This document shows positions 5,685-7,186 of a DNA stretch of 64,000 nt, piece by piece. How positions within the stretch are numbered: position 1 is the first letter of the stretch; every line of letters starts with the position of its first letter. The stretch is from the human T2T-CHM13v2.0 reference genome, Homo sapiens. The DNA is taken from assembly GCF_009914755.1 (NCBI RefSeq), contig NC_060925.1; one strand, given 5' to 3'. The translations under genes and the position numbers were made by a program. A model generated the notes under the pieces. That model had not been told where the DNA came from and ran no database searches. It was given only the letters and a program-made list of their open reading frames with translations.

Positions 5685-6374
5685 TGACTCCTGGGTTCAA
5701 GTGATTCTCCTGCTTCAGCCTCCCCAGTACCCACCATCACACCCATCTAATTTTTGTATTTTTTGTAAGGATGGCATTTCACCGTGTTGGCCAGGCTGGT
5801 CTCGAACTGCTGACCTCAACTAATCCGCCCGACTCAGTCTCCCAAAGTGCTAGAATTACAGGCGTGAGCTACCACGCCCGGCCTAAAGAACATTTATTGA
5901 TCACACTACTGGTTAAGTGGTGCAAAAGAAACACACAACTTTTTATCTACACAGTTCTATAATTTTTATGAAAATCAGGGACCTTGAACATACATCATGT
6001 TTAATAAGGAATCAAAGCAATTGCTAACAAATTCAGAGCATTCCTCTGGACTCCTTCAACCGGTTCTAACAGTTGCTCTCCAAGGTAGAGATGGCAAAAT
6101 GTTGTGATTACCAAGGAGCCACCTTTGAGAAAGATTAAGAGGGCAGTGTGGCCAGATAGGCCATCAGCAATACATTTCATCAGAATAAGGGAAGAGGATG
6201 CATCTGTTTAACCATATTCCCAAAAAAGTAGAGACTGGAAAGAAAAACAGAGAGAAAGCCAATAGTGTTAGCAGCTCTTTCAGGGGGAACAAAAAGAGAA
6301 GATGAAGTGTGACCAAGTGTACAAAGCTGGAAGGATGCAAGAAAAAATTGCCATCTAGTAGTTGCTTCAGCTCT

Positions 6375-6909
6375 TTTTTTTTTTTTTTTTTACATATTTC
6401 AACTGTTTTATTTGCTTTCTGGGGTGTCAAATGTGAGCGCTCTCAGGGTCCAGCCCCAAGCAGTGTCCAGCAGATTCTTCTCCGCCCAAGGGTCCTGGAC
6501 ATGGAGGTTTCAGACAAAAGGCACTGGCTGGAGCTCTGGAAGTCAGGCAGAAGCCACCCTGAAGCTGGGGGTCTCAAGTCTGCCTTTGGGGAGAGAAAAT
6601 ACATTCACTTTGGCAGGATTGGTTTTTCACTTTTGGATGAGGTCAGGGTCTGAGTCCTCCCAGCTCTCCTTGTCTTGCAATGTGTTCTGCAGATCCTGGT
6701 GGCATTTCTGCAACTCCTGGAACCTGGAGACATATGGATCAGAGTGCTCATCCAAGGCAGGAACCCCAGAAGGTTCTCCCCGGGCAAAGGCAGGGCGCTC
6801 CACCCTCCAGGGTACCTCTGACAACATCAGTAATATCAGCAGCATCTGAGAGCAACGCCATGGCACAGGTCCTGGCCTGCGCGTGATGGTCCTGGTGCTG
6901 GTTGCTATC
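6375..6909 (-). pseudogene. retrocopy of a short GDF15-like mRNA (signal peptide + N-terminal prodomain only)
   Basis: T18 at 6374-6391 (poly-A on the minus strand) and AATAAA at 6407-6412 rc. 16-bp TSD TAGTTGCTTCAGCTCT (6359-6374)/TAGTTGCTTCAACTTT (6910-6925) with a TT|AAAG L1 endonuclease-type site. ORF 6866->6627 contains SQMLLILLMLS and HSDPYVSRFQELQKCHQDLQNTLQDKESWEDSDPDLI, matching recalled human GDF15 SQMLLVLLVLS and HSEDSRFRELRKRYEDLLTRLRANQSWEDSNTDLV. Confidence 0.85.
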
Positions 6910-7051
6910 TAGTTGCTTCAACTTTAATGTGAATATATCCACTGTCTCTAGAGAAGGACCAGTAACCTAAAACTAAAGGAGAAACTAAATAAAAAGAATA
7001 ATACAAGTTTACCAAAGACTAAATCACAAAGTGGATTTCCTTTTTTCCTAA

Positions 7052-7186
<135 letters not shown>

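What the first reader, a model, noticed from the sequence alone, without database searches (positions are those of the whole stretch)
6359..6925. Retroposed mRNA of a truncated GDF15-like gene: possible trace of an undescribed prodomain-only GDF15 paralogue
Seen in sequence: a complete L1-mediated retrocopy (16-bp TSD with 2 mismatches, uninterrupted 18-nt poly-A, AATAAA ~15 nt upstream of it), only ~535 bp long. Compared with human GDF15 as I recall it, SQMLLILLMLS matches 9/11 and the SRF...SWEDS..DL block matches 16/30 (~72% nt). Spacing is exact: an ACG at 6884 sits 13 codons before the internal Met (6845), where GDF15 Met1 lies relative to Met14, and 24 codons separate LS from HS in both. 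After DPDLI the frame stops, and the insert has no RxxR site or cystine-knot mature domain. Inference: the fresh-looking tail and TSD suggest a primate-era insertion, yet ~30% divergence and extra residues in HSDPYVSR (more like non-primate GDF15 as I recall it) are too much for a primate GDF15 retrocopy. The donor may have been an older, separate gene encoding a small secreted GDF15 prodomain-like peptide. The alternative is an ancient GDF15 isoform that was intronically polyadenylated or alternatively terminated.
Basis: partly seen in the sequence, partly recalled or inferred. Interest (0 to 1): 0.9.

Follow-up and report, generated by a model that had tools for sequence, protein, structure and literature searches.

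The report
Retrocopy of a lost GDF15-like transcript
This is a dead, L1-made copy of an old spliced RNA that began in a now-decayed duplicate of the first exon of the hormone gene GDF15, so it records that this unannotated duplicate was once transcribed and spliced.

Summary
Window 6348-6925 (minus strand) is a processed retrocopy with target-site duplications, an A18 tail and an AATAAA 15 nt before the tail.

The parent is not GDF15 itself.
- The 5' half is 78% identical to a GDF15-exon-1-like pseudo-exon ("psiE1", chr19:18516315-18516587), which lies 4 kb upstream of true GDF15 exon 1. True exon 1 is only 64% identical.
- The 3' half is 74% identical to a terminal-exon-like piece ("B", chr19:18503848-18504086).
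- The two halves meet exactly at psiE1's ancestral splice donor and B's acceptor.

Unexplained: in today's genome B lies 12 kb upstream of psiE1 on the same strand. A colinear transcript therefore cannot be drawn.

Both relics are dead.
- Human psiE1 carries stops and frameshifts.
- The retrocopy has ACG in place of the start codon.
- Its open frame depends on two compensating 4-nt indels.
- That frame is broken in two orthologous copies from other genomes.

Whether the parent ever made a secreted peptide is not shown. The find is a modest evolutionary curiosity.

The parts
6902..6925 (-). 5' target-site duplication. The core is 6902-6920. It may extend to 6925, where it is preceded by TT.
   Evidence: The same 19-nt core recurs at 6348-6369 with one mismatch and a 3-nt indel.
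6630..6901 (-). Part derived from the GDF15-exon-1-like exon psiE1: a short 5'UTR plus 85 codons. ACG at 6882-6884 stands where the parent has ATG. There is an internal ATG at 6843-6845.
   Evidence: 78% identical to chr19:18516315-18516587 (E=4e-54). 63.6% identical to true GDF15 exon 1. Three-way alignment.
6629..6630 (-). Exon-exon junction (AAG|TGA). The stop codon at 6627-6629 is the first triplet of the second exon.
   Evidence: Homology to psiE1 ends at the AAG that precedes GT in GDF15 exon 1. Homology to B starts right after B's polypyrimidine-AG.
6392..6629 (-). Part derived from terminal exon B.
   Evidence: 74% identical to chr19:18503848-18504086 (E=3e-31).
6407..6412 (-). AATAAA polyadenylation signal, conserved in B.
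6374..6391 (-). Uninterrupted A18 tail, absent from the parent locus B.
6348..6369 (-). 3' target-site duplication.
6627..6908 (-). 93-codon stop-to-stop open frame, with the stop included. It is not a conserved coding frame.
   Evidence: The frame is broken by a shared 1-nt deletion in the orthologous copies P0001 and P0003. Its middle is off the ancestral frame.

Best explanation
The element is an L1-mediated processed pseudogene of a two-exon, capped and polyadenylated RNA.

Shown:
- Exon 1 of that RNA came from psiE1. This is an old duplicate of the GDF15 promoter and first exon that still lies 4 kb upstream of GDF15 (chr19:18516100-18516587).
- Exon 2 came from B (chr19:18503848-18504086). 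B is a terminal-exon-like piece with a branch-point-like CTAAC, a polypyrimidine tract and AG acceptor, AATAAA, and a GT-rich downstream element.
- The two parts are joined exactly at splice sites.
- The cDNA was inserted at a TT|AAAG-like site upstream of ARID1A.
- The insertion predates the split from at least two other genomes that carry it.
- Both the copy and psiE1 are now non-coding relics.

Inferred:
- The insertion dates to roughly the early-primate era.
- Because B now lies upstream of psiE1, the parent RNA needs some other origin. One option is a later tandem duplication that placed a second B downstream of psiE1 and was since lost (my odds about 0.5). Others are trans-splicing between two pre-mRNAs (about 0.2) or another rearrangement (about 0.3).
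For: Retrocopy hallmarks:
- Tail, polyadenylation signal and target-site duplications are all present.

Parent loci:
- The whole-assembly DNA search gave 3 of 3 scored candidates: the element itself, psiE1 (78%, query 16-296, E=4e-54) and B (74%, query 299-531, E=3e-31).
- A sensitive blastn over 100 kb around GDF15 found one psiE1, one B and one true exon 1 (62.8-63.6%).

Lineage:
- In the three-way alignment the retrocopy and psiE1 share a 29-nt deletion relative to GDF15 exon 1.
- They also share derived residues in the block that is conserved in human GDF15 and in 4 of 4 other GDF15 proteins.

Splicing:
- psiE1 homology ends at AAG. GDF15 exon 1 has AAG|GTAAG there, and psiE1 has a GTGAG donor 5 nt further on.
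- B homology begins directly after TTTCTTTCTAG.

Transcription from psiE1's own promoter:
- The 5' end of the copy lies about 20 nt upstream of the start-codon position.
- psiE1 keeps a TATAAAG and a 25-nt block shared with the GDF15 promoter.
- Promoter homology reaches about -260.

Neutral decay:
- Polarised changes are 22 retrocopy-only and 19 psiE1-only.
- CpG observed/expected is 0.23 and 0.22, against 0.76 in GDF15 exon 1.

Shared insertion:
- P0001 and P0003 translate across the element and its flanks.
Against: - B lies 12.2 kb upstream of psiE1 on the same strand. No second B exists within 100 kb, and there is no B relic between psiE1 and GDF15. The parent transcript therefore cannot be drawn on the present genome, and the proposed duplication is hypothetical.
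- Human psiE1 has 5 extra nt (CACAG) between the junction AAG and its GT. The exact-junction reading assumes that these were gained later, using GDF15 exon 1 as outgroup.
- The 3' half is more diverged from B (K2P 0.353 +/- 0.046) than the 5' half is from psiE1 (0.237 +/- 0.034), a gap of about 2 SE. This fits a paralogous B' but could equally be rate variation.
- No genome of another mammal could be searched, so the age and the ancestral gene order are untested.
- The A18 tail and the well-kept target-site duplications look young for 20-27% divergence.
Confidence: 0.85

Rival explanations
1. The parent was a working protein-coding gene, and this is the reader's main idea. A duplicated GDF15 promoter and exon 1, spliced to B, would encode a secreted peptide of about 85-94 aa, made of a signal peptide and the N-terminal part of the GDF15 prodomain. 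That gene was later lost in the human lineage, and the retrocopy is its fossil.
For: - A parsimony node for the retrocopy/psiE1 ancestor, polarised by GDF15 exon 1, has ATG and an 85-codon frame open to the donor. It has no stop, and 8 codons are unresolved.
- This holds despite a long shared stem. There are 60 changes shared against GDF15 exon 1, compared with 19-22 on each tip.
- The hydrophobic signal-like stretch is kept.
Against: - The block conserved in human GDF15 and in 4 of 4 other GDF15 proteins is heavily altered in the retrocopy and psiE1 lineage. This looks like relaxed constraint.
- An unknown share of the 60 stem changes belongs to the GDF15 branch.
- No intact psiE1-type protein was found among 1.84 billion representatives. 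The 8 hits were 3 copies of the retrocopy, 4 GDF15 proteins and 1 repeat protein.
- Human psiE1 has stops and frameshifts.
- An open 85-codon frame in GC-rich DNA is weak evidence.
Confidence: 0.2
2. It is a retrocopy of GDF15 itself, either an old GDF15 mRNA or an alternatively terminated or intronically polyadenylated isoform. The divergence would then be due only to age.
For: The GDF15 exon 1 likeness is significant (E=6.7e-6). The retrocopy keeps ancestral GDF15 states that human GDF15 has lost.
Against: - The retrocopy is 78% identical to psiE1 but 63-64% to GDF15 exon 1.
- It shares the 29-nt deletion with psiE1.
- Its 3' half has no match in GDF15 intron 1, exon 2 or the 3'UTR at word size 7. 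It matches B instead.
Confidence: 0.03
3. It is a chimeric retrocopy made by L1 reverse transcriptase switching template, from a polyadenylated RNA ending in B to a psiE1 RNA.
For: The order of the two parts is not colinear with the genome. Such chimeras are known from recall, with no paper read here.
Against: - The junction coincides with a splice donor on one side and an acceptor on the other, with no gap needed.
- The two source loci lie 12 kb apart in a genome of 3.1 Gb. That is very unlikely for two independent RNAs.
Confidence: 0.04
4. The GDF15 resemblance and the retrocopy features are chance.
For: None. Pfam and PDB sequence searches with the frame gave only sub-threshold unrelated matches, but neither library holds the GDF15 prodomain as a matching entry.
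Against: DNA E-values of 4e-54 and 3e-31 to two loci flanking GDF15, and a protein E-value of 6.7e-6.
Confidence: 0.01

Closest known systems
L1-mediated processed pseudogenes (retrocopies) of spliced mRNAs
   Same: The element is intronless with an exon-exon junction. It has a poly(A) tail after AATAAA and target-site duplications at a TT|AAAG-like site. It has decayed neutrally and has no conserved frame.
   Different: The parent is not an annotated gene. It is a combination of a decayed GDF15 exon-1 duplicate and a distant terminal exon, and their present genomic order is the reverse of their order in the copy.
GDF15 (TGF-beta superfamily hormone), exon 1: signal peptide and N-terminal prodomain
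   Same: Homologous over about 85 codons, including the start-codon position, the signal-like stretch and the SWEDS block. psiE1 also copies the TATA-containing promoter.
   Different: There is no exon 2, so no furin site and no cystine-knot domain. A 29-nt deletion puts the end of the exon in another phase. Identity to human GDF15 exon 1 is 64% at nucleotide level and 43% at amino-acid level.
'Orphan' retrocopies whose parent gene has been lost or degraded (concept recalled, no paper read here)
   Same: The retrocopy preserves the exon structure of a transcript that no longer exists in working form.
   Different: Here the parent's pieces are still recognisable in the genome, so it is not a true orphan.
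Chimeric genes formed at tandem-duplication junctions, with the 5' part of the downstream gene joined to the 3' part of the upstream gene (textbook concept, recalled)
   Same: The transcript joins a GDF15-type 5' exon to a terminal exon from the 3' side of the upstream neighbour. B lies 6.1 kb past the putative last coding exon of PGPEP1.
   Different: No duplication junction or second B copy is present in the human assembly. The duplication is therefore inferred, not seen.

Membership tests
L1-mediated processed pseudogene | Exon-exon junction with the intron absent | tested here: met
   The two halves map to loci 12 kb apart. They meet at a donor (AAG|GT) and an acceptor (polyY-AG|).
L1-mediated processed pseudogene | Poly(A) tail at a genuine polyadenylation site that is not encoded at the parent locus | tested here: met
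   The A18 tail starts 15 nt after AATAAA. B has the same AATAAA but no A run.
L1-mediated processed pseudogene | Target-site duplications and an L1 endonuclease-like target | tested here: met
   The 19/22-nt duplication has 1 mismatch and a 3-nt indel. TT precedes AAAG at the possible 5' end. The target motif is a consensus recalled from memory.
L1-mediated processed pseudogene | Presence at the same site in related genomes, with an empty site in outgroups | tested here: inconclusive
No empty site could be sought because no mammalian genomes are held.
GDF15 / TGF-beta superfamily protein | C-terminal cystine-knot domain after a furin site | tested here: not met
   No TGF_beta match in Pfam. 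The frame stops at the first triplet of the second exon.
GDF15 / TGF-beta superfamily protein | Homology to GDF15 exon 1 | tested here: met
   E=6.7e-6 in the assembly. P0005-P0008 at E 3.4e-7 to 8.9e-4.
Template-switch chimeric retrocopy | Junction unrelated to splice sites, with partners from unlinked RNAs | tested here: not met
   The junction lies at splice sites. The partners are 12 kb apart.
circRNA-derived pseudogene (recalled concept) | Non-colinear junction in a copy that lacks a transcript's true 5' and 3' ends | tested here: not met
   The order is non-colinear. However, the copy starts near the promoter-proximal 5' end and ends at B's poly(A) site with a tail.

The most novel reading that the evidence does not exclude
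Early in primate or euarchontan history the PGPEP1-GDF15 interval may have held a working two-exon gene. It would have been driven by a duplicated, stress-type GDF15 promoter, and it would have encoded a secreted peptide of about 90 aa consisting only of the GDF15 signal peptide and N-terminal prodomain. It would have been built at a tandem-duplication junction onto a terminal exon from the PGPEP1 side. The chr1 retrocopy would be its only full-length record in humans, and the gene could still be intact in some other mammal.
Probability: 0.15. Interest if true: 0.6.

Novelty: new member of a known kind. Interest (0 to 1): 0.35.

Why it matters
GDF15 is under intense study in nausea of pregnancy, cachexia and appetite control. 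The non-coding interval upstream of it is where regulatory variants are sought.

This retrocopy shows that a second, TATA-bearing copy of the GDF15 promoter and first exon lies 4 kb upstream of the gene. That copy was once transcribed, spliced and polyadenylated in the germ line. I found no description of it in six full-text searches.

The relic could still act as an alternative promoter, a decoy first exon or an enhancer. This is untested.

The reversed order of the two parent pieces is a small puzzle. It may record a lost tandem duplication or a trans-splicing event.

The retrocopy itself is an ordinary dead pseudogene.

Tried and rejected
- Pfam and PDB sequence searches with the 93-aa frame gave only unrelated sub-threshold matches.
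- PF01470 over the assembly did not find the PGPEP1 exons: 0 of 5 candidates passed.
- A Pfam scan of 125 plus-strand open segments of 45 aa or more from chr19:18485001-18505000 found no peptidase match.
- I then located the putative PGPEP1 exons with four short recalled motifs. Pfam support for them is weak. The N-terminal piece scores E=0.072 for Peptidase_C15, the C-terminal piece gets nothing, and PDB gets nothing. The PGPEP1 assignment of these exons therefore rests on recall, plus the review's statement that PGPEP1 is the upstream neighbour (PMC7299427, passages read).
- From recalled hg38 coordinates, B's poly(A) site may coincide with the annotated 3' end of PGPEP1. This is unverified.
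- The self-comparison of the 40-kb interval was swamped by Alu matches. A masked re-run found only the promoter and exon-1 duplication.
- Polarising the stem changes with a reconstructed node plus other-mammal GDF15 proteins was stopped. The alignment by reference gives only a qualitative answer.
- The cattle copy-number paper (PMC3276122, passages read) concerns a different gene.
- Supplements of the papers were not opened.

Full report
**What is in the window.** Read on the minus strand, window 6348-6925 has the full anatomy of an L1-made processed retrocopy.
- A 19-nt core at 6902-6920 recurs at 6348-6369 with one mismatch and a 3-nt indel.
- An uninterrupted A18 occupies 6374-6391.
- AATAAA sits at 6407-6412, with 15 nt between it and the tail.
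- The 5' copy of the duplication may extend to 6925, where TT precedes AAAG.
- The body (6392-6901) is about 510 nt.
- Its longest frame is 93 codons stop to stop (6627-6908).

**Is the GDF15 likeness real?** Yes.
- A six-frame search of the whole assembly with the 93-aa frame returned true GDF15 exon 1 at E=6.7e-6, 43% identity over residues 7-91.
- HMMER over 1.84 billion representative proteins gave 8 hits at E<=0.001.
  - P0002 is identical to the window's own frame.
  - P0001 and P0003 are two orthologous copies of the retrocopy.
  - P0005-P0008 are four GDF15 proteins or exon-1 fragments (E 3.4e-7 to 8.9e-4).
  - P0004 is a repeat protein that I regard as spurious.
- Pfam and PDB sequence searches gave nothing relevant.

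**The parent is not GDF15 itself.** A DNA search of the assembly gave three places:
- the element itself;
- chr19:18516315-18516587, plus strand, 78% identity, query 16-296, E=4e-54;
- chr19:18503848-18504086, plus strand, 74% identity, query 299-531, E=3e-31.

Six-frame translation placed the true GDF15 start codon at chr19:18520335 and the end of its coding sequence near 18523069. The first hit is therefore a separate GDF15-exon-1-like piece 4 kb upstream of GDF15, which I call psiE1. True exon 1 is only 62.8-63.6% identical to the retrocopy. psiE1 and exon 1 are 64.8% identical over about 400 nt that include the promoter.

**Three-way alignment of retrocopy, psiE1 and GDF15 exon 1**.
- The retrocopy and psiE1 share a 29-nt deletion near the end of the exon.
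- They share many substitutions. Sixty sites set them apart from exon 1, against 22 private to the retrocopy and 19 private to psiE1.
- In the protein alignment the block after SRF is conserved in human GDF15 and in 4 of 4 other GDF15 proteins. It is altered in the retrocopy.
- The two extra residues in HSDPYVSR, the DPDLI motif and the N-terminal PGP.PW.CS pattern are ancestral GDF15 states. They are also seen in P0005-P0008, and human GDF15 has lost them.

**The junction is a splice junction.**
- Homology to psiE1 ends at the AAG at 6630-6632. At that position GDF15 exon 1 has AAG|GTAAG. Human psiE1 has AAG, then five extra bases, then GTGAG.
- Homology to the second locus, B, starts at 6629. 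That is immediately after B's TTTCTTTCTAG, which is preceded by a CTAAC branch-point-like motif.
- No gap is needed across the junction if the five extra bases in human psiE1 are a later gain, as the GDF15 outgroup suggests.
- B ends with the same AATAAA. In the genome this is followed by a GT-rich stretch, not by an A run.
- The retrocopy's 5' end lies about 20 nt before the start-codon position.
- psiE1 keeps a TATAAAG and a 25-nt block shared with the GDF15 promoter. Promoter homology reaches about -260.
- The source was therefore an RNA started at psiE1's own promoter, spliced to B and polyadenylated at B's site.
- This rules out reverse-transcriptase template switching in practice. It also rules out a circular-RNA source.

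**The unexplained point.** B lies 12.2 kb upstream of psiE1 on the same strand.
- Within 100 kb (chr19:18455001-18555000) there is exactly one B, one psiE1 and one exon 1 at word size 7.
- The 3.6 kb between psiE1 and GDF15 holds about 2.4 kb of multi-copy (Alu-like) sequence and no B relic.
- A colinear psiE1-to-B transcript therefore cannot be drawn on this genome.
- Four recalled motifs place putative PGPEP1 exons at chr19:18476975 and 18497485-18497718. Support from Pfam is weak. If the assignment is right, B sits 6.1 kb past the stop codon of the upstream neighbour PGPEP1.
- A GDF15-type 5' exon joined to a 3' exon from the upstream gene's side is what a tandem duplication spanning the interval would create at its junction.
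- The 3' half is more diverged from B than the 5' half is from psiE1. K2P is 0.353 +/- 0.046 against 0.237 +/- 0.034. Without CpG sites it is 0.327 against 0.210, a gap of about 2 SE. This is what a paralogous, since-lost B' would give, but rate variation could do the same.
- I give a lost duplication about even odds. Trans-splicing and other rearrangements share the rest.

**Age.**
- Tip changes are balanced, 22 against 19. CpG observed/expected is 0.23 and 0.22, against 0.76 in GDF15 exon 1. Both relics have drifted neutrally since they split.
- Per-lineage divergence is roughly 10-17%. From recalled repeat-age scales this points to about the early-primate era. That is inference.
- The psiE1/exon-1 duplication is at least twice as old (K2P 0.46-0.51).
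- P0001 (221 aa) and P0003 (132 aa) are open frames predicted on short unnamed contigs. They run across the retrocopy and into its 3' and 5' flanks respectively.
- Their amino-acid identity to the human translations is about 82% and 86% by my hand count. In a simulation this corresponds to roughly 9% and 6.5% nucleotide divergence. The insertion is therefore shared and not fresh.

**Coding potential.**
- The retrocopy has ACG where psiE1 and GDF15 have ATG.
- Its frame stays open only because a private +4 insertion is offset by a private -4 deletion. The roughly 17 codons between them are out of the ancestral frame.
- P0001 and P0003 share a 1-nt deletion that breaks the frame.
- Human psiE1 has stops and frameshifts.
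- The retrocopy is therefore not a gene.
- A parsimony node of the retrocopy/psiE1 ancestor has ATG and an open 85-codon frame up to the donor, with 8 unresolved codons. The parent may have been coding when it was copied, but this is weak evidence.
- No intact psiE1-type protein appeared in the protein searches.

**Literature.** Six full-text searches found no description of a GDF15 retrocopy, a GDF15 exon-1 duplicate or a PGPEP1/GDF15 chimera.
- The searches were: GDF15 with 'processed pseudogene'; with PGPEP1 and duplication; with retrocopy; with 'gene duplication', primates and prodomain; and 'PGPEP1-GDF15' and 'GDF15-PGPEP1'.
- For some searches I saw listings only.
- I read passages of PMC7299427, which describes GDF15 as a two-exon gene flanked by PGPEP1 and LRRC25.
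- I read passages of PMC3276122, which is not relevant.
- Genome annotation for chr19 was not available to me, so psiE1 or B may be annotated there.

**Verdict.** The 'fresh insertion' reading and the 'prodomain peptide' function are not supported. The element is an ordinary dead processed pseudogene. It is of interest for revealing an undescribed, once-active duplicate of the GDF15 promoter and exon 1, and for the reversed order of its parent pieces.

Noticed in passing
L007:1100-1587 (chr19:18516100-18516587): psiE1 is a decayed duplicate of the GDF15 promoter and exon 1, 4 kb upstream of GDF15. It keeps a TATAAAG, a 25-nt block identical or nearly identical to the GDF15 promoter, and a GTGAG donor. 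It might still act as a start site or regulatory element.
   Followed up: partly
L005:8800-9110 (chr19:18503800-18504110): B keeps all the marks of a terminal exon: CTAAC, a polypyrimidine-AG, AATAAA and a GT-rich downstream stretch. From recalled hg38 coordinates its poly(A) site may be the annotated 3' end of PGPEP1, which is unverified.
   Followed up: partly
L005:2485-2718 and L010:1951-2034: Putative last and first coding exons of PGPEP1, found with recalled short motifs. Pfam gives Peptidase_C15 at E=0.072 for the N-terminal piece only.
   Followed up: partly
window ~6760-6775: P0001 and P0003 share a 1-nt deletion in the CCTTCT run relative to human and to psiE1.
   Followed up: partly
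window 7071-7100 and beyond: The 5' end of an Alu on the plus strand lies about 150 nt from the retrocopy. It is not nested with it.
   Followed up: no
P0004 (582 aa): A tandem-repeat protein matched the N-terminal 32 residues of the query in 9 stretches (E=7.5e-8). I regard this as a low-complexity artefact.
   Followed up: no
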